From a virus: a DNA stretch of 64,000 nt. A program made the position numbers and the translations under genes. This document shows positions 37,387-45,415 of the stretch, piece after piece; within the stretch, counting starts at the first letter, position 1; each line of letters begins with the position of its first letter. Below the pieces are notes generated by a model. It made no database searches. It was given only the letters and a program-made list of their open reading frames with translations, and was not told where the DNA came from. Location of the stretch: IMG/VR virus record IMGVR_UViG_3300046004_000518, positions 46,478 through 110,477 of that record; one strand, given 5' to 3'.

Positions 37387-39298
<1,912 letters not shown>

Positions 39299-39301
39299 TT
39301 G

Positions 39302-39324
39302 TTACTCCTTTATTAAGCAAATAA
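39302..39324 (-). promoter_or_regulatory. ROSE-like RNA thermometer hairpin over the groES Shine-Dalgarno
   Basis: UUAUUUGCUU-AAUA-AAGGAGUAA pairs with a single bulged G of UUGCU opposite AGGA. Confidence 0.6.
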
Positions 39325-39361
39325 AAATATGTACACGCCCTAAGTTAGGCACGAAATACAT

Positions 39362-39390
39362 AGTGTATTACAGATAATTACTTATGTCAA
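39362..39390 (-). promoter_or_regulatory. Sigma70 promoter TTGACA-17-TACACT for groES-groEL
   Basis: Perfect -35 and correct spacing. Confidence 0.65.
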
Positions 39391-39812
39391 CTGTTTTCTC
39401 TACTTGTTTGTTCTTGATACCAATCTGCCAAGTCCTCACATAATGGCATTGTTAATGGTAAAAATTCAGCAGGCGCATCGATAAATTTAATGAAGTGCTC
39501 TTCTCGAAGCTCAGTGATAAATTCTAGCAAATCTTCGAGATCAATATCGCAAATCCATTCACTAAGACCTGCTTCTGCGCTTGATATTTTATCTTTAAAA
39601 TAACGTTTGAATTGTCGCTCTGCTATACGAATTTGATTTTCATCTCCAAGCCATACTCGCATGAAACTTTCTTCCCAAACCGGACCTACAGCATTCTGGT
39701 ATGTAGCAAGTCGTGATCGAGCAGTGGTTAGTTGAGCAATGCCCACTTTGAAGTGACGAGGGTCAACAACCCCTGGGCACTTCTTAAAGTATAGAATGTA
39801 GTCTTTAATCAT
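39387..39812 (-). CDS. GIY-YIG/T5orf172-like nuclease-fold protein
   Basis: ILYF...FKVGI...RSRLATYQ...AE...F...EW pattern. Confidence 0.5.
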   Translation of the reverse strand: MIKDYILYFKKCPGVVDPRHFKVGIAQLTTARSRLATYQNAVGPVWEESFMRVWLGDENQIRIAERQFKRYFKDKISSAEAGLSEWICDIDLEDLLEFITELREEHFIKFIDAPAEFLPLTMPLCEDLADWYQEQTSRENS

Positions 39813-40915
39813 TTTACAGGGTACGTAGCTTCAGGTTGTGCTAACTTGAAACCGCCTTTGCCATGTTTGTTATAGGTAAGGATTAACCCGCTTGTAACAA
39901 CTTCAGGGTGCCCTGCTAGTGAACCAAAGTGATTAATATACTGTGCCTTAAAACCAGTAGTTTCGTCGTGTACTACATCAGCCGGACCATAGTTACTTTT
40001 AAGAATGTTACCTAATTCAACATCAAACGCTGGCGGTAACAATACGCCTGTGTCTAATTCTGTTCGCTGATACAACCGTGCCATACTAAGCATAACAATT
40101 GGTTGAATTTCTTCTTTAGGCCAAGTGGTGCGAAAAAAGTTTAGTGCTTTTGCCAAGTAAAGTCCTTTAAGGCTTGAACTAGCTTGTAAGAGATTATATG
40201 CTCCGTATAAGTGATTAATATGGCTAATGTCACCTGCTTTGGAACTAGTACGACGAATTCGTACATTGTTAGTATCACAAATCGATTGGATTCTTGTGGG
40301 TTCTTCGTGGCCACAATCAACACCAATCATGTGTGCGTCATATAAACTCAGTTCACGCTTGCCGCTCTTGTTAATAGTAATCATACTGTTACCAGCATGG
40401 CTAATTAGAATCTTTGTTGCTTCCTCTAAAGAATGTGTGTCATCAATTTGAGCTTCGGTGTACCATACAGGCATATGAGTCCAACCCTGACGTTCACATA
40501 CTCGAGTAGTGTGATGGCCATCCCAAAACAAAAACTTGCCTGAAATTGGATCTTTAATGGCGCATGGCACAATAATCGTTTCTGTTTTGAATAATGATTC
40601 AATTTTAGCAATATGGTTTGGCATAACGTCACGTTGGAAACGTGGATTAATAGCAATATCGTCCATGGCTACCCAAGCAAATTTAGGAACATTAAGTTGT
40701 CTTGGGTCAACAGACAAGCGTAGAGCAGGCGCTGGGCCAACTACAGCGGCTACTGCTTCACCGATATCCTTGTTAGGGATAATACCGTTAGGATAGTTTT
40801 CAGACATGACCCGAAGATCAATCGCTGTATCATCGATTTCAAATTTAGTAGCAAAAGGTGCTAAAAATTTAGCAATACGTTGTTCTTTAAGTTTTGTTTT
40901 ACTAATCTTAGCCAT
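39809..40915 (-). CDS. ParB/Srx-like (DGxH) domain protein
   Basis: IAINPRFQRD...HIAKI...F...FWDGHHT; own sigma70 promoter. Confidence 0.6.
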   Translation of the reverse strand: MAKISKTKLKEQRIAKFLAPFATKFEIDDTAIDLRVMSENYPNGIIPNKDIGEAVAAVVGPAPALRLSVDPRQLNVPKFAWVAMDDIAINPRFQRDVMPNHIAKIESLFKTETIIVPCAIKDPISGKFLFWDGHHTTRVCERQGWTHMPVWYTEAQIDDTHSLEEATKILISHAGNSMITINKSGKRELSLYDAHMIGVDCGHEEPTRIQSICDTNNVRIRRTSSKAGDISHINHLYGAYNLLQASSSLKGLYLAKALNFFRTTWPKEEIQPIVMLSMARLYQRTELDTGVLLPPAFDVELGNILKSNYGPADVVHDETTGFKAQYINHFGSLAGHPEVVTSGLILTYNKHGKGGFKLAQPEATYPVK

Positions 40916-40950
40916 ATGTATTCTCTCTTAGTTGTTAACTTACAAATGCT

Positions 40951-40978
40951 ATTATACACTCTTTTATAGAATTGTCAA
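40951..40978 (-). promoter_or_regulatory. Sigma70 promoter TTGACA-16-TATAAT
   Basis: Perfect hexamers with extended -10 TG. Confidence 0.8.
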
Positions 40979-40980
40979 GC

Positions 40981-41010
40981 AAAAAGAAAGCCCACCGAAG
41001 TGAGCTTCCT
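40981..41010 (-). terminator. Rho-independent terminator ending the tmRNA coding piece
   Basis: AAGCTCAC-TTCG-GTGGGCTT-TCTTTTT. Confidence 0.85.
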
Positions 41011-41360
41011 ACTAGTTTTGATTACAAGGTATAGTTACCCCGTGGTGTTTGTTTCTTAGGCAAACGTTGCTGTTTTAGTAGCAGAACCGAAGCGGAAGCC
41101 ACGACCCATAGATACTTTTACAGCACCAGTTGTAGATGTTTTTGCATTTACAAGATTTTGTATTTTACGTGACCCCACGTGTTGAGTTGTTATCCTATCT
41201 CACGCTGTCGAAACCTGGTCAGGCCCATCAGAAGCATACTATCTCGCTAAAGACATAATCCTTACGGGACCTTAGTGACAATATACTTTTGGTGGACCTG
41301 GGCGGAATCGAACCGCCGTCCAACATGTATTACTTTACAACTTTGCCTTACGGCTACAAC
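40985..41360 (-). ncRNA. ssrA: Circularly permuted (two-piece) tmRNA: acceptor piece ~41360-41290, intervening segment 41289-41227, coding piece from 41226; tag ORF 41145-41056
   Basis: GGGCCUG/CAGGUCC-ACCA acceptor stem with G3-U70; T-arm GGCGG-UUCGAUU-CCGCC; D-loop UUCGAC; P2 pairings CAGCGUG/CAUGUUG and ACAACU/AGUUGU; resume context UAAAU-GCA; the CCA end precedes the 5' end. Confidence 0.9.
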
Positions 41361-41381
41361 AATTTCTTTAGTACTAGTGTA

Positions 41382-41585
41382 TTACACTGGTACAATATTC
41401 GAAGCTTGCTTGCCCTTAGGACCTTGTGTTACTTCAAACTTTACTGCTTGGTTTTCTGCTAGTGTTTTGAAACCTGTGCTCTCAATTGCTGAGAAGTGAG
41501 CAAATAAATCCTCACCTCCTGCGTCTGGAGTGATAAATCCAAAACCTTTTGAATCCGAAAACCATTTTACTTTACCTGTTGCCAT
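41382..41585 (-). CDS. cspA: Cold-shock protein
   Basis: GKVKWF..KGFGFI...[11 protein letters not shown]1/RNP2; promoter TTGACT-17-TATTAT at 41624-41652. Confidence 0.96.
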
Positions 41586-41656
41586 TACTGTTACTTCCTT
41601 TATATTTAATTTACTACATAACTATAATAACATACTATAATCACGTAGTCAACTAT

Positions 41657-41788
41657 TTATTGCATAGTTTCAGTATGTTTGTGTTTTAAAGACTTTTTGA
41701 GTATTTTTAGCCACAATTTCTTTTGTTTTGTTACATTGTGTCGTACACAGGCTCTATACATTTTTCTTACTAGTTTACGTGTTTTCAT
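41657..41788 (-). CDS. Very basic 43-aa protein (MKTRKLVRKMYRACVRHNVTKQKKLWLKILKKSLKHKHTETMQ)
   Basis: Manually translated; AGGAAG RBS. Confidence 0.6.
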   Translation of the reverse strand: MKTRKLVRKMYRACVRHNVTKQKKLWLKILKKSLKHKHTETMQ

Positions 41789-41796
41789 TTTACTTC

Positions 41797-42225
41797 CTAC
41801 GGTTTTACTACAATTGGCGGTAATGTCATTTCAATTGTACCATTACTAAGATATCTCTTCTTTTCTGTACTAAAATTTCGTTGCATAAATGTTGCTCTGC
41901 CGCCTTCTACCCACCAAGTATTAACCAACGGTATAACACGTATAGTAGGTGCTGGACCTGCTCCTTCTGACTTTGACATCAGCTGGGTTGGAATTTCAGA
42001 AGTGTCTGGACTATTCCAACATCCTTCATGATTGACCAAATCAGAACTTTCCGTAGCATAAGCACGATACGGATATTCTTCTGCCATCTTCTCAACAGTA
42101 CATGGTCGTGTAGTTAACACAACAACCCCACCGGCATCATCGGGCATGTACATTTCCTTAGGCAATTCAGCTGCCGCCACAGACTGAAATAACGATGCTG
42201 TTAACAATAATAGTATTTTACGCAT
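41797..42225 (-). CDS. Secreted/periplasmic hypothetical protein
   Basis: Signal peptide MRKILLLLTASLFQSVAAA; AGGAGG RBS; TAAATA at 42277-42282. Confidence 0.7.
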   Translation of the reverse strand: MRKILLLLTASLFQSVAAAELPKEMYMPDDAGGVVVLTTRPCTVEKMAEEYPYRAYATESSDLVNHEGCWNSPDTSEIPTQLMSKSEGAGPAPTIRVIPLVNTWWVEGGRATFMQRNFSTEKKRYLSNGTIEMTLPPIVVKP

Positions 42226-42321
42226 TCTGTATTCCTCCTATCGAGCGTCGGAAAAATAACAGGGCGCCGTTATCAGTATTTAACCTTTAAGGTGTAAATA
42301 TTTTGTAACAGAATTATACTA

Positions 42322-42630
42322 TTATGCAACTATACCCACCCGTGCTCGAATTGCTTCTAAACTGATTGCCGGCTTAGTAACCCTAACAGTATTATATTTC
42401 TCATCCGATAGGTTAATTGCTTCTGCATATCGAGCTGTCTGCATTAAGTCAGTGGTTTTAAGATACGCAACCACTCCTGCTTTAGTCAACGGAGCCGCTA
42501 GTTCAATTAATTCGATATCAGTATGACCTGATTTAATTAACATCTTAACTCGACTAACAAAATCATTAGCAAAGCGTACTTTGGTAACGCCATTTAATGT
42601 TGAAACCCCTGCTACTTTAAATAAAGACAT
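42322..42630 (-). CDS. Phage hypothetical protein
   Basis: FKVAGVS...KVRFAND; AGGAG RBS. Confidence 0.7.
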   Translation of the reverse strand: MSLFKVAGVSTLNGVTKVRFANDFVSRVKMLIKSGHTDIELIELAAPLTKAGVVAYLKTTDLMQTARYAEAINLSDEKYNTVRVTKPAISLEAIRARVGIVA

Positions 42631-42638
42631 ACTATCTC

Positions 42639-42833
42639 CTAAAGACGACGTGGAAGTGCCGATAGCCCGCGGATTATCTCACACAATTTATCAATGTCGG
42701 ATACAATTAATCTTGTATCTACCCAATTATCATCATCTGTGTGACCAGAATATTGTAAAGTAAATCCATTGTCATATAAACTGACATTAAACTCATTTAC
42801 ATTTTTTGTTATTCCATTATTTGTTATTGCCAT
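42639..42833 (-). CDS. Hypothetical protein; start revised to MAITNN
   Basis: AAGGAG RBS before 42833. Confidence 0.65.
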   Translation of the reverse strand: MAITNNGITKNVNEFNVSLYDNGFTLQYSGHTDDDNWVDTRLIVSDIDKLCEIIRGLSALPRRL

Positions 42834-42844
42834 TTTATTTCTCC

Positions 42845-43039
42845 TTAACCAATGTGACGTGCGTATTGAATAATACAACGATTAGCACCACCATTCATAT
42901 TACGTACTTGATGTTCTGCATAATCTTGGTTTGGTGCTTCTACTACAACAACATAATTACTTGGACCATCAGTGCCTTGAATACTACCACCTTCATTAAG
43001 TCCACGTGCTAAAGTTTTGTAACTAACTTCGAATCGCAT
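42845..43039 (-). CDS. Hypothetical early protein
   Basis: AGGAG RBS; first gene after the promoter at 43076-43104. Confidence 0.7.
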   Translation of the reverse strand: MRFEVSYKTLARGLNEGGSIQGTDGPSNYVVVVEAPNQDYAEHQVRNMNGGANRCIIQYARHIG

Positions 43040-43075
43040 TTTAATTCTCCTGTTGTTTAATTAACTTACAAACAT

Positions 43076-43104
43076 ATTATACTACCACTTAACCAAAAAG
43101 TCAA
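43076..43104 (-). promoter_or_regulatory. Sigma70 promoter, conserved-spacer family
   Basis: TTGACT-TTTTGGTTAAGTGGTAG-TATAAT. Confidence 0.85.
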
Positions 43105-43111
43105 CCAAAAT

Positions 43112-43501
43112 TTATGCGACCCACCCTTGACCAGTAATTTCATGTAGCCACGGATAAAAACTAGGAATCCGCATAGTCCACTCACCGTTAAAATTTAAGT
43201 AACTGGTAGTAGGTTTTGCTACAGTATCCTGATATAAAGGAATAATTTCGTGGCCGTCAATAATAACTTTAACTTCTACTGCTTCTGGATGCTGGCGTGT
43301 TACAATAACCTTAATTTCAATAGGACCATCAATTGGATAACCTTTAACTAGGATTGATTTATTACTATCTAATAGCCCATCGTGTACTACCTGCCCATTA
43401 ATCAAGGCCACACAAACACACTTATCAACAGGTGTTAGTATTAACTCTATAATAGAAGTTAATTGAGGTTTAATAGCCGTAGCTTCTGAGAAATTCTTCA
43501 T
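43112..43501 (-). CDS. Hypothetical protein; start revised to MKNFSEA
   Basis: Overlaps the 3' end of the radical SAM gene. Confidence 0.6.
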   Translation of the reverse strand: MKNFSEATAIKPQLTSIIELILTPVDKCVCVALINGQVVHDGLLDSNKSILVKGYPIDGPIEIKVIVTRQHPEAVEVKVIIDGHEIIPLYQDTVAKPTTSYLNFNGEWTMRIPSFYPWLHEITGQGWVA

Positions 43502-44795
43502 ATTCCGGTAAATGATCCAATATATTATTGTTGTGTACTTGTTCAAATGCCTTGGTAAACTTAACTAGATTCGCACGTTCTTGTTCGCAGTCTAAGGGCA
43601 CCTGTATAGCTTCTAAGAGCTGTTTATACTCAAAGATTAAGTTGCTGATCACAGGTCTTACAAGGTCTTCTCTACGGCGATTAATTATGGTTTCATTCGG
43701 AACCAAACTATGCCGTTGGATTACTTGATCTAATTTTGCTACGGCAGTCTTACGTAGATCATTGGGCAACAGTTCAATGCGCAGGCAAGTGGGATCGCTA
43801 AGAATATTGCAACTTTCAGCAATAACGCCATTGACCAACATGTACTCAAACACTTGATCTAAATGATATATGGTATAGATGCTAGGTGTAATACGTAAGG
43901 TAATTTGTATGCCTGTAGAATCACGTAGTGCTAGAAAACGATCTAGATTATGTTTAACTTCATCAATCTTACTTGGATAGCGTATATAATCGTTTAGTGA
44001 GTCGAATGTTTCTATACTAACGCCTAGATGAAACTGTTTAAACTCACTTATAATATCAGCAAGTTCATCACTGTAGATAGTACCATTGGTAGTAATGCCC
44101 ACAATGATATCACGGCTAATACCTGCGGCAATTAATGCTGAACATATACGATAAAAGCTCTTTAGATAAAGTGTTTCTCCACCTAAAAAGTGTAGATACT
44201 TAAGACCTTTTATTTCTATTAACTCAGTAACAAACTTATCTACTAACTCATCATTGTCTGACCAATTCTTAAAACGATCATAGGTTTTAAAAATTGTAGG
44301 CTCAATAGCTGTTAACTGTTCATACTCTTTAGTTAGACGACTGCTGTAGGTAGGATTACACATGATACAGCTACTATTACAAGTATTACCTAGATCAATT
44401 TGAATATCAACTGGCGTGCGATTGATTTGCCCATCATTCTTATACGAGTAATTAAAATTTGACCAATGCGGACTGCTGACAAATGTCTTATTAAAGTTAT
44501 CTACAGTAACAGCACTTTTCAGTAGTTGCCGTTGACGACCACTAACTTTATTATGCTGATCTTCGTAATAACAGCCCTGGCATTCTGTACTAGGAATACC
44601 GGATAGTTGCTGTGTACGAAACGCACACATTGTAGGACTGTTCATAAACTCTGCAATTGATGTGTCGCAGATATTGTAATCACTTTGCCCGTCACCTGGT
44701 CGCCATTCACTCATCCAACGACAGGGAATGTAATAGCCTGCTGGCGTTATTCTAAAGTGGAACCAAGGACTGGAGCAAAATGTATCTTTAAGCAT
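43470..44795 (-). CDS. Radical SAM protein with N-terminal twitch/SPASM-like Cys cluster
   Basis: CNSSCIMC (CxxxCxxC), GGE, TNGT; N-terminal CSSPW..PC...CQGC. Confidence 0.9.
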   Translation of the reverse strand: MLKDTFCSSPWFHFRITPAGYYIPCRWMSEWRPGDGQSDYNICDTSIAEFMNSPTMCAFRTQQLSGIPSTECQGCYYEDQHNKVSGRQRQLLKSAVTVDNFNKTFVSSPHWSNFNYSYKNDGQINRTPVDIQIDLGNTCNSSCIMCNPTYSSRLTKEYEQLTAIEPTIFKTYDRFKNWSDNDELVDKFVTELIEIKGLKYLHFLGGETLYLKSFYRICSALIAAGISRDIIVGITTNGTIYSDELADIISEFKQFHLGVSIETFDSLNDYIRYPSKIDEVKHNLDRFLALRDSTGIQITLRITPSIYTIYHLDQVFEYMLVNGVIAESCNILSDPTCLRIELLPNDLRKTAVAKLDQVIQRHSLVPNETIINRRREDLVRPVISNLIFEYKQLLEAIQVPLDCEQERANLVKFTKAFEQVHNNNILDHLPEYEEFLRSYGY

Positions 44796-45415
44796 TAACG
44801 TTTCGTAATAACTTCGTCGGCTAAACCGTAGGCCACTGCTTCATCTGCTGACAAGAATGTATCAAACTTCATTGCTTCATATAGTTCGTCGTACGTTTTA
44901 CCAGCAGTATTGTGACGTGCATATAACTCTGTTAGACGTTTGTTAATGCGCACACTTTCTTCAAAGCTACGTTTAGCATCTTCAAATTGTAGGTCTTGTA
45001 CGTGTACACTACCACGGGTGCCCGGAGTACCTGAACTAACACGGTGAATCATTGTACGTGCTTCTGGTAGGACAATACGCTTGCCTGGCGCACCTGCTTG
45101 CGCTAGGAAGCTACCCATTGAGCAGGCTTGACCAAGTACAATAGTTGATACATCACATTTGATAAACTGCATTGTATCATAAATTGCTAGGCCAGCAGTA
45201 ACACTGCCACCTGGACTATTGATGTAGAACAAGATATCTTTCTCTGGGCTTTCGCTTTCTAAGAACAGCATCTGTGCCACGATTAAACTAGCAGTATGCT
45301 CGTTAACATCAGTGTCCAACATGATGATACGATCTTTAAGTAAACGACTATAAATGTCATAGCTACGTTCGCCTTGACTTGTACGTTCTACTACCATTGG
45401 GACTAAAGTTGACAT
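44795..45415 (-). CDS. clpP: ATP-dependent Clp protease proteolytic subunit
   Basis: [33 protein letters not shown] (Ser), MIHR (His). Confidence 0.95.

What the first reader, a model, noticed from the sequence alone, without database searches (positions are those of the whole stretch)
40981..41381. Circularly permuted, two-piece tmRNA gene in a phage
Seen on the minus strand: the T-arm and CAGGUCC-ACCA end (41290) come first. A 63-nt intervening segment follows, folding as a long hairpin (AAGUAUAUUGUC/GAUAGUAUGCUU). Then come the 5' end GGGCCUG at 41226, the tag ORF, a pseudoknot-like GGGGU..ACUA..ACCUU..UAGU element and a terminator. The 7-bp acceptor stem carries the G3-U70 alanine determinant, and inter-piece P2 helices can form. 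Known: two-piece tmRNAs occur in alphaproteobacteria, some cyanobacteria and a betaproteobacterial lineage; the phage tmRNAs I know are mostly one-piece. The ORF track misses it and overlays a spurious ORF (41275..41499).
Basis: partly seen in the sequence, partly recalled or inferred. Interest (0 to 1): 0.85.

Follow-up and report, generated by a model that had tools for sequence, protein, structure and literature searches.

The report
Huge-phage two-piece tmRNA, long tag
This fragment of an uncultured ~350-kb phage carries a real, intact "split and reordered" ribosome-rescue RNA (tmRNA); phages were already known to carry such genes, and its unusual part is a 29-residue tag, seen almost only on viral DNA, that does not end in the usual Ala-Ala.

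Summary
ARAGORN calls a permuted tmRNA at window 40965-41382 (-). Rfam tmRNA_permuted scores 84.4 bits (cut-off 47) and beta_tmRNA 84.6 (cut-off 84). Covariation in 30 related viral genes supports the acceptor stem, T-arm and inter-piece helices: 94.5% of cells paired against 35-49% in controls, with G3.U70 invariant. The 3' pseudoknot, a stop-codon helix and the terminator are also supported.

It is not a new kind of thing. Two-piece tmRNAs in phages and tmRNAs in huge phages are published (Buchholz 2022; Al-Shayeb 2020). One IMG/VR scan found at least 118 permuted tmRNA loci. This scan has already reported close relatives on other DNA (e.g. e1-6009064).

It is a divergent member of the betaproteobacterial type, not a fourth permutation and not a recent host capture.

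What stands out is the 29-codon tag: a conserved core, variable ends and a ...TFA terminus. That allele recurs in six other contigs and comes with compensatory changes in the helix around the stop codon. The gene is cotranscribed with a csp gene and lies between the phage's ClpP and GroES/GroEL. No SmpB was found in the phage or its complete relatives, so host SmpB is needed. Who reads the tag is unknown.

The parts
41624..41652 (-). sigma-70-like promoter (TTGACT-17-TATTAT with TG) ahead of csp; likely promoter of the csp-ssrA transcript
   Evidence: no other minus-strand promoter-like site and no terminator-like site between it and the tmRNA
41382..41585 (-). csp gene (67 aa cold-shock domain protein, CspE/CspD-like), stop codon abuts the tmRNA leader
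   Evidence: Pfam CSD 98.6 bits; NCBIfam CspE 110 bits, below its cut-off of 120; csp sits directly upstream of permuted tmRNA in about 45 viral loci and in L200, L201, L203
41290..41365 (-). acceptor piece: leader with P2c (41361-41357), small GNRA hairpin (41354-41345), P2b (41342-41337) and P2a (41327-41321) 5' strands, T-arm, acceptor 3' strand, ACCA; its 5' end is inferred, not mapped
41301..41317 (-). T-arm GGCGG/UUCGAUU/CCGCC
   Evidence: 100% paired in 30 sequences, 3 of 5 pairs covary
41290..41300 (-). acceptor 3' strand CAGGUCC, discriminator A, encoded CCA
   Evidence: acceptor 100% paired, G3.U70 30 of 30
41227..41289 (-). 63-nt intervening segment, long hairpin, removed on maturation (inferred)
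   Evidence: MFE and centroid folds; nearly identical in L149, L167, L107, L046, but very variable in length and sequence in other family members
40985..41226 (-). coding piece: acceptor 5' strand GGGCCUG (41226-41220), P2a/P2b/P2c 3' strands (41207-41201, 41190-41185, 41184-41180), hairpin CGUG-GGGU-CACG (41179-41168), tag ORF, 3' pseudoknot, terminator
41056..41145 (-). tag reading frame: resume codon GCA at 41145, 29 codons, stop TAA 41058-41056; begins AKTST, core VKVSMGRGFRF, ends KTATFA
   Evidence: ARAGORN; frame kept in 28-, 29- and 30-codon alleles, synonymous-only variation in five conserved columns; AAA to CGT (K to R) in L167
41048..41064 (-). helix with the stop codon in its loop (UUUG...CAAA)
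   Evidence: 100% paired, 3 of 4 pairs changed on both sides: GCAG/CUGC, GCUG/CAGC, UUUG/CAAA
41011..41042 (-). H-type pseudoknot: stem 1 CGGGGU/ACCUUG, stem 2 ACUA/UAGU
   Evidence: stem 1 98.7% and stem 2 93.8% paired, both with compensatory changes, on 13 sequences chosen for an alignable stem 2
40985..41010 (-). intrinsic terminator (UUCG tetraloop, U run)
44795..45415 (-). context: phage ClpP (206 aa)
   Evidence: Pfam CLP_protease 218 bits; NCBIfam NF001368 256.5 bits, above its cut-off of 249
37387..39298 (-). context: phage GroES (39005-39298) and GroEL (37387-39027)

Best explanation
This is a functional ssrA gene of the circularly permuted, betaproteobacterial type, carried by a huge phage of roughly 330-390 kb.

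Inferred mechanism:
1. It is transcribed together with the upstream csp gene from the promoter at 41652-41624 and ends at the terminator 41010-40985.
2. Host tRNA-processing enzymes cut the precursor. RNase P cuts 5' of G41226, and 3' trimming reaches the encoded CCA at 41290. This removes the 63-nt hairpin segment.
3. Two RNAs result: an acceptor piece of about 75 nt and a coding piece of about 240 nt. The acceptor stem and three P2 helices hold them together.
4. Host AlaRS charges the RNA through G3.U70 and A73.
5. Host SmpB, which the phage does not encode, delivers it to stalled ribosomes.
6. Translation resumes at GCA 41145 and adds a 29-residue tag.

Shown here: the gene's anatomy, covariation in every helix, conservation of the reading frame, and the family relationships. 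Inferred: processing, charging and tagging.

The fate of tagged proteins is open. The tag keeps a conserved core but has lost the canonical ...LAA end. I therefore think the phage redirects tagged proteins away from the host's default ClpXP route, possibly to its own ClpA-ClpP. That last step is a hypothesis only.
For: - Detection: ARAGORN permuted tmRNA; RF04321 84.4 bits against a cut-off of 47; RF01850 84.6 against 84.
- Other tmRNA models fail: cyano 42.6 against 70, standard 20.4 against 47, and the alpha model has no hit at the locus.
- Relatives score 98-150 bits on the beta model.
- Covariation, tRNA-like half: 94.5% paired, 24 of 37 pairs changed on both sides, G3.U70 in 30 of 30 sequences.
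- Covariation, 3' domain: 95.7% paired.
- Tag read as a peptide: whole-codon indels, synonymous-only columns, and AAA to CGT giving K to R.
- The ...TFA ending recurs in L167 and in five metagenome contigs from three projects, with only a conservative S to T change in the core.
- The changed last codons are matched by compensatory changes in the stop-codon helix.
- Cotranscription with csp: one promoter-like site, and no terminator between csp and the tmRNA.
- No SmpB in the record or in five relatives, including a 329-kb contig with terminal repeats (100% complete) and a 353-kb contig (98% complete).
- The phage has ClpP, a ClpA-like ATPase and GroES/GroEL. The order ClpP ... tmRNA ... GroES-GroEL is conserved in relatives.
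Against: - There are no expression, processing, charging or tagging data. The phage is uncultured and its host is unknown.
- The window's own score on the beta model is only just above the cut-off.
- Nucleotide invariance of the tag core among the first ten alleles is an artefact of my search pattern.
- Linkage to ClpP holds only for this phage clade. The larger ANADTFDF... long-tag subfamily shows csp but no ClpP or GroEL within the fetched flanks. Gene neighbourhood is therefore weak support for a tag-protease link.
- Only 28% of this genome is in hand, so a distant smpB cannot be excluded for this particular phage.
Confidence: 0.85

Rival explanations
1. It rescues ribosomes without causing degradation, or acts as a decoy. 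The phage tmRNA would compete with host tmRNA for SmpB and stalled ribosomes. Because the tag lacks the LAA degron, rescue would proceed (or host tagging would be blocked) without ClpXP degradation, and no phage protease would be involved.
For: The tag ends ...TFA rather than ...LAA. The phage relies on host SmpB. A tRNA-like-domain-only phage tmRNA that inhibits host tmRNA is published (DS6A, cited in PMC4131195 and PMC11915505).
Against: A pure decoy needs no tag, yet the 29-codon frame, its core and the stop-codon helix are all under selection. Close relatives keep ...LAA or ...VAA endings, so loss of the degron is not a family trait.
Confidence: 0.15
2. It arose by an independent, fourth circular permutation within phages and is unrelated to the three bacterial two-piece lineages.
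For: The sequence type is almost confined to viral contigs: 1 real bacterial carrier of the 21-nt 5' motif among 185,579 species representatives. Identity to sampled bacterial beta-type genes is only 58-67%.
Against: Family members reach 98-150 bits on the beta model and none fits the alpha or cyano models. Short-tag viral members carry typical beta-type tags such as ANDERFALAA, the same as in bacterial genomes. Bacterial sequences fall among the viral ones in a low-resolution tree.
Confidence: 0.05
3. It is a decaying passenger gene or pseudogene with no function.
For: It has the lowest beta-model score in the family and an odd tag that ARAGORN does not recognise.
Against: Every helix is intact. 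Compensatory changes are specific to this allele. The allele occurs in seven independent contigs with conservative changes only.
Confidence: 0.03
4. It is a host ssrA gene, or an attachment-site fragment at a prophage junction, or an assembly chimera, and not a phage gene.
For: tmRNA genes are common integration sites (PMC4131195, PMC11915505). Some of the short-tag 'viral' loci may be of this kind.
Against: The gene is complete and lies inside a conserved phage gene order on contigs up to 353 kb, one of them with terminal repeats. No bacterial genome searched has a close copy.
Confidence: 0.02

Closest known systems
Betaproteobacterial two-piece tmRNA (Rfam RF01850; the 'third lineage' of Sharkady and Williams 2004, as cited in PMC9004378)
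   Same: The gene order is permuted (acceptor piece, intervening segment, coding piece). Both share the GUUGU-type P2 helices, the hairpin before the tag, the resume context UAAAUGCAAA and a 3' hairpin or terminator. Viral relatives score 98-150 bits.
   Different: The window scores only 84.6 bits, against 107-296 for bacterial genes, and is 58-67% identical to them. Its tag is 29 residues rather than 10 and does not end in AA. It has an extra GNRA hairpin in the leader and a 3' pseudoknot. It is carried by a phage and cotranscribed with csp.
Two-piece ssrA of Methylophilales phage Melnitz and pelagimyophages (Buchholz et al. 2022, PMC9004378)
   Same: Both are phage-encoded, circularly permuted tmRNAs found in aquatic-type viral contigs and placed next to an upstream regulator-like gene.
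   Different: Melnitz's gene is of the alphaproteobacterial type and carries a glutamine riboswitch. Here the alpha model finds nothing at the locus and Rfam finds no riboswitch in the window. The genomes here are also far larger.
tmRNAs of huge phages (Al-Shayeb et al. 2020, PMC7162821)
   Same: Both are huge-phage genomes carrying translation-rescue genes, including tmRNA.
   Different: That paper reports tmRNA together with SmpB. This lineage has no SmpB in two essentially complete genomes. No GenBank phage record matches this gene by blastn.
Mycoplasma tmRNA tags (long, ending ...AFA, read by Lon instead of ClpXP; Gur and Sauer 2008; recalled from memory, not checked here)
   Same: Both tags are long and end in Phe-Ala instead of Ala-Ala, which is a precedent for a change of protease with a change of tag ending.
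   Different: The sequence, the one-piece RNA and the organism are all unrelated. There is no evidence here about which protease acts.

Membership tests
tmRNA (ssrA) | tRNA-like domain: 7-bp acceptor stem with G3.U70, discriminator A, CCA, and a T-arm with a GGUUCGAnUCC loop | tested here: met
   Read directly. Acceptor and T-arm are 100% paired and G3.U70 is present in 30 of 30 sequences.
tmRNA (ssrA) | Internal tag reading frame with an Ala resume codon and a stop codon in a helix loop | tested here: met
   Resume codon GCA at 41145 and stop at 41058-41056. The frame is conserved. The stop-codon helix covaries.
tmRNA (ssrA) | Alanylation, SmpB binding and trans-translation activity | not testable with these tools
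   No smpB in the record or in five relatives, so a host protein would be needed.
Two-piece (circularly permuted) tmRNA, Rfam RF04321 | The 3' acceptor half precedes the 5' half in the gene, and the score reaches the gathering threshold | tested here: met
   84.4 bits against 47, full-length match 1-213. ARAGORN labels it 'Permuted'.
Two-piece (circularly permuted) tmRNA, Rfam RF04321 | The mature RNA exists as two pieces | not testable with these tools
   Needs Northern blots, RACE or RNA-seq read ends.
beta_tmRNA, Rfam RF01850 | Score at or above the gathering threshold of 84 bits | tested here: met
   84.6 bits, which is marginal. Close relatives L149, L093, L107 and L046 score 98-150.
beta_tmRNA, Rfam RF01850 | Carried by, or infecting, Betaproteobacteria | not testable with these tools
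   The host is unknown. There are no close cultured phages. Perfect sigma-70 promoters fit a proteobacterial host but do not prove one.
alpha_tmRNA, Rfam RF01849 | Score at or above 50 bits at the locus | tested here: not met
   No hit at the locus.
cyano_tmRNA, Rfam RF01851 | Score at or above 70 bits | tested here: not met
   42.6 bits, a partial match.
Standard one-piece tmRNA, Rfam RF00023 | Score at or above 47 bits | tested here: not met
   20.4 bits.
Melnitz-type phage ssrA | Alpha-type two-piece RNA with a glutamine riboswitch | tested here: not met
   No alpha-model match. Rfam at gathering thresholds finds only the two tmRNA models in the window.

The most novel reading that the evidence does not exclude
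The long tag, with its conserved strand-turn-strand-like core and freely exchanged ends, could be a phage-specific handle. The phage's own ClpA-ClpP, or another phage factor, would read it instead of host ClpXP/SspB. Together with GroES/GroEL and Csp this would give huge phages a private quality-control circuit. Reassortment of tag modules between phages would then reflect selection on who may degrade tagged proteins.
Probability: 0.2. Interest if true: 0.65.

Novelty: new variant of a known kind. Interest (0 to 1): 0.35.

Why it matters
As a gene it is ordinary. Standard tools find it, and phage two-piece tmRNAs are published.

It matters modestly for three reasons:
- It documents a large tmRNA lineage that is nearly confined to viruses. 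Its tags are two to three times the usual length, are conserved as peptides and are exchanged as modules, and their reader is unknown.
- The ...TFA allele shows a tag ending changing together with the RNA helix that holds it. That is a clean natural experiment on how the degron and the RNA structure evolve together.
- The lineage has no SmpB, so it must be compatible with the host's SmpB and AlaRS. That could help identify the host.

If the tag is read by the phage's own Clp system, this would be a clear case of a virus bringing both halves of a tagging-and-degradation pathway.

Tried and rejected
- **Tag mimics neighbour p102:** I thought the tag might mimic the N-terminus of the conserved neighbour p102 (window 42322-42630). 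BLASTP found no alignment, so I dropped the idea.
- **Neighbours as adaptor or rescue factor:** p102, p142, p368 and p141 have no Pfam or PHROG family. The atlas gave only phage hypotheticals for p102. p142 has a signal peptide. p368 has only a weak ParB-like hit, E = 0.025.
- **ClpS:** not found in the record.
- **L156 (536-kb 'Pseudomonadales MAG' contig):** the motif hit is a chance match inside a coding region with 69% GC, not a tmRNA.
- **Close cultured phages:** megablast and blastn against GenBank phages found no match to the tmRNA. The only hit was a 180-nt GroEL stretch in Bacteroides phages. GroEL and ClpA protein searches gave at most 67% and 45% identity. The host is left open.
- **Tree of the tRNA-like domain plus P2 (115 sequences, 244 columns):** it is too short to root or to resolve viral against bacterial branching. 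I used it only to show that identical tags sit on different domain types.
- **Alternative short tag:** the Rfam alignment suggests an out-of-frame UAA at 41118-41116. I rejected this because the in-frame 29-codon reading is conserved.
- **Complex prediction:** not used, because the tag is shorter than the tool's 30-residue minimum and I make no binding claim.

Full report
**What is there**

On the minus strand of window 40965-41382 ARAGORN calls one permuted tmRNA, and it finds no other tRNA-like gene in the window or in the whole 110,477-bp record. Rfam gives two hits above threshold at the same place: tmRNA_permuted RF04321 at 84.4 bits (cut-off 47) and beta_tmRNA RF01850 at 84.6 bits (cut-off 84).

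The other tmRNA models fail. The cyano model reaches 42.6 bits against 70, the standard one-piece model 20.4 against 47, and the alpha model has no hit at the locus.

- T-arm at 41317-41301.
- CAGGUCC plus ACCA ending at 41290.
- A 63-nt intervening segment at 41289-41227.
- GGGCCUG from 41226.
- G3.U70 and discriminator A.
- Resume codon GCA at 41145, then 29 codons, then stop at 41058-41056.
- A pseudoknot at 41042-41011.
- A terminator at 41010-40985.

The unguided MFE fold recovers the T-arm, the acceptor stem, the long hairpin of the intervening segment, P2a and the terminator (z = -3.9). The + strand ORF 41275..41499 is real as an open frame. It is antisense to this RNA and to a strong csp gene, so it is spurious.

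**Is the structure more than chance?**

ARAGORN called a permuted tmRNA in almost all of them.

I aligned 30 diverse relatives (A3) and counted pairs for a structure written from the window's sequence:
- 94.5% of cells pair, against 35-49% when partners are slid by 1-3 columns.
- 24 of 37 pairs change on both sides.
- 0 of 500 shuffles reach the observed values.
- The acceptor stem, T-arm and P2a are 100% paired.
- G3.U70 is present in all 30 sequences.

P2b covaries clearly, for example AGUUGU/ACAACU against GCUC/GAGU.

I tested the 3' domain on 13 sequences that I chose because their second pseudoknot stem could be aligned:

| Element | Cells paired | Note |
|---|---|---|
| Helix holding the stop codon in its loop | 100% | 3 of 4 pairs covary |
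| Pseudoknot stem 1 | 98.7% | |
| Pseudoknot stem 2 | 93.8% | |
| Terminator | 92.9% | |

Other family members have a different second stem that I did not model.

**What the DNA is**

The window is part of an IMG/VR virus record that CheckV rates 28% complete. Close relatives lie on contigs of 104-353 kb. One has terminal repeats, is 329 kb long and is rated 100% complete. The phage is therefore a huge phage of roughly 330-390 kb.

No cultured phage is close. The host is unknown. Perfect sigma-70 promoters fit a proteobacterial host.

**Which family, and is it a capture?**

Close relatives score 98-150 bits on the beta model. Bacterial beta-type genes sampled from the order of a betaproteobacterial MAG score 107-296 bits and carry 10-residue tags such as ANDERFALAA. 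That same tag is found in many short-tag viral loci. The gene therefore belongs to the betaproteobacterial two-piece type and is not a fourth permutation.

It is not a recent capture either:
- Over the tRNA-like domain plus P2 the window is 91-98% identical to viral relatives and only 58-67% identical to the bacterial genes.
- A conserved 21-nt motif of its 5' half occurs in 2 of 185,579 bacterial species representatives. One of the two is a chance hit in a coding region. The other is a real tmRNA on a 50-kb MAG contig.
- In 401 genomes of that order, only T-arm and acceptor segments of 26-48 nt match.

The tallies include two unpublished genomes (G027, G295). No specific claim rests on them.

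**The tag**

The viral loci fall into short-tag genes (10-14 residues) and long-tag genes (20-31 residues). Many long tags read as an N-terminal extension joined to a canonical tag, for example one ending ...TV followed by ANDSRFALAA.

The window belongs to a subfamily with the core VKVSMGRGFRF.

Its closest relative is L167, on a 104-kb contig, with GroEL 96.5% identical. L167 has the same tag apart from AAA to CGT, a three-base change giving Lys to Arg.

L149, on a 219-kb contig, has flanks 92-93% identical at the DNA level and an almost identical tRNA-like domain and intervening segment. Its tag, however, differs at 10 codons nonsynonymously at the two ends. In the core it differs only synonymously, and it lacks one whole codon.

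Across ten distinct alleles the frame is kept at 28, 29 or 30 codons, and five conserved columns vary only synonymously. One caveat applies: the nucleotide invariance of the seven core codons in that set is due to my search pattern.

An independent scan that keyed on the C-terminal codons found five metagenome contigs from three projects with the same ...TKTATFA ending. In these the core shows only Ser to Thr.

The unusual last codons (UUU GCC) are matched by CAAA on the other strand of the stop-codon helix, where relatives have GCAG/CUGC or GCUG/CAGC. The ...TFA tag is thus a maintained, selected allele. It is neither decay nor an assembly error. ARAGORN's own list does not know the tag.

**Mosaic evolution**

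The window combines parts that occur separately elsewhere:
- A leader hairpin and P2b of the type seen in L141 and L017.
- A tRNA-like domain and intervening segment 94-98% identical to the short-tag genes L107 and L046.
- An mRNA half of the L093/L149 type.

Identical tags also sit on different tRNA-like-domain clusters, and short-tag genes nest within the window's cluster. The two halves of the gene therefore reassort among phages.

**Surroundings**

A csp gene ends where the tmRNA leader begins. The only promoter-like site lies ahead of csp, and no terminator separates the two genes. In L149 and L167 another small ORF takes that place. Csp is directly upstream in about 45 other viral loci and in L200, L201 and L203.

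Several proteostasis genes are present:
- A true ClpP at 44795-45415.
- GroES and GroEL at 39298-37387.
- A 769-aa ClpA-like ATPase elsewhere in the record. Its best match is TIGR02639 at 830 bits, below the equivalog cut-off.

The order ClpP ... p102-p142 - tmRNA - ... GroES-GroEL recurs in this clade. It does not recur around the larger ANADTFDF... subfamily.

SmpB is absent from the record and from five relatives, two of them essentially complete. ClpS was not found.

**What is known, and what earlier notes said**

Two-piece tmRNAs in phages are published. Buchholz et al. 2022 counted 53 two-piece forms among 133 unique phage tmRNAs and described Melnitz's alpha-type gene with a glutamine riboswitch (PMC9004378). 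Al-Shayeb et al. 2020 reported tmRNA and SmpB in huge phages (PMC7162821). The current tmRNA database lists 79 phage sequences and is the source of RF04321 (PMC11915505). In the papers I could search I found no description of this long-tag lineage.

This scan has met the same kind of gene repeatedly on other DNA. Note e1-6009064 describes a near relative. Its claims, that the tag is kept as a peptide and that the gene lies between ClpP and GroES/GroEL, held when I tested them here.

**Verdict**

The gene is an intact, evidently selected two-piece tmRNA of the beta type in a huge phage. It depends on host SmpB and AlaRS. It belongs to a mostly virus-borne family with long modular tags, and this allele has swapped the canonical Ala-Ala end for ...TFA.

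It is a new variant of a known kind, of moderate interest. The open question is who reads the tag.

Noticed in passing
window 41382-41585 (-) with 40985-41381 (-); also L017, L037, L144, L200, L203 and about 40 other loci: A csp gene lies directly upstream of a permuted tmRNA in about 45 viral loci, with no promoter or terminator between them in the window. csp-ssrA looks like a conserved mobile cassette. Close relatives L149 and L167 have a different small ORF in that slot.
   Followed up: partly
window 37387-45415 (-) and G000:C1 about 40122-42431 (L158:1132-3441 -): The phage has a proteostasis gene set: ClpP, a radical SAM/SPASM protein (43470-44795), Csp, tmRNA, GroES, GroEL, and a 769-aa ClpA-like ATPase about 45 kb away. 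The order ClpP ... tmRNA ... GroES-GroEL is conserved in the clade.
   Followed up: partly
loci L131, L133, L134, L153, L090, L008, L135, L152 (tags listed): Many long viral tags look like an N-terminal extension fused in frame to a canonical 9-10-residue beta-type tag. This suggests long tags arose by moving the resume point upstream.
   Followed up: no
L017/L126 versus L048; L107, L124, L040, L098 versus the window: Identical tags occur on different tRNA-like-domain types, and short-tag genes share the window's domain type. The two halves of the gene appear to recombine between phages.
   Followed up: partly
window 41797-42225 (-) and 42322-42630 (-): p142 (with a signal peptide) and p102 are conserved immediately upstream of the tmRNA across the clade. 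Neither matches any Pfam or PHROG family.
   Followed up: partly
window 39809-40915 (-): The 368-aa protein just downstream of the tmRNA, behind a perfect TTGACA-16-TATAAT promoter (40978-40951), has only a weak ParB-like hit (E = 0.025). In L149 and L167 this slot holds other genes.
   Followed up: no
L155 / L174 (JAGLBD010000023.1, a 50-kb contig of a Pseudogulbenkiania MAG): This is the only bacterial species representative with the viral-type 5' motif in a real permuted tmRNA (12-residue tag ending ...QHVA). The contig might be a phage or prophage binned with the MAG.
   Followed up: no
L131, L145, L153: ARAGORN makes a second, non-permuted tmRNA call that overlaps the start of the permuted gene in three loci, giving a 25-residue 'tag'. 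This is probably a false call on the csp/leader region.
   Followed up: no
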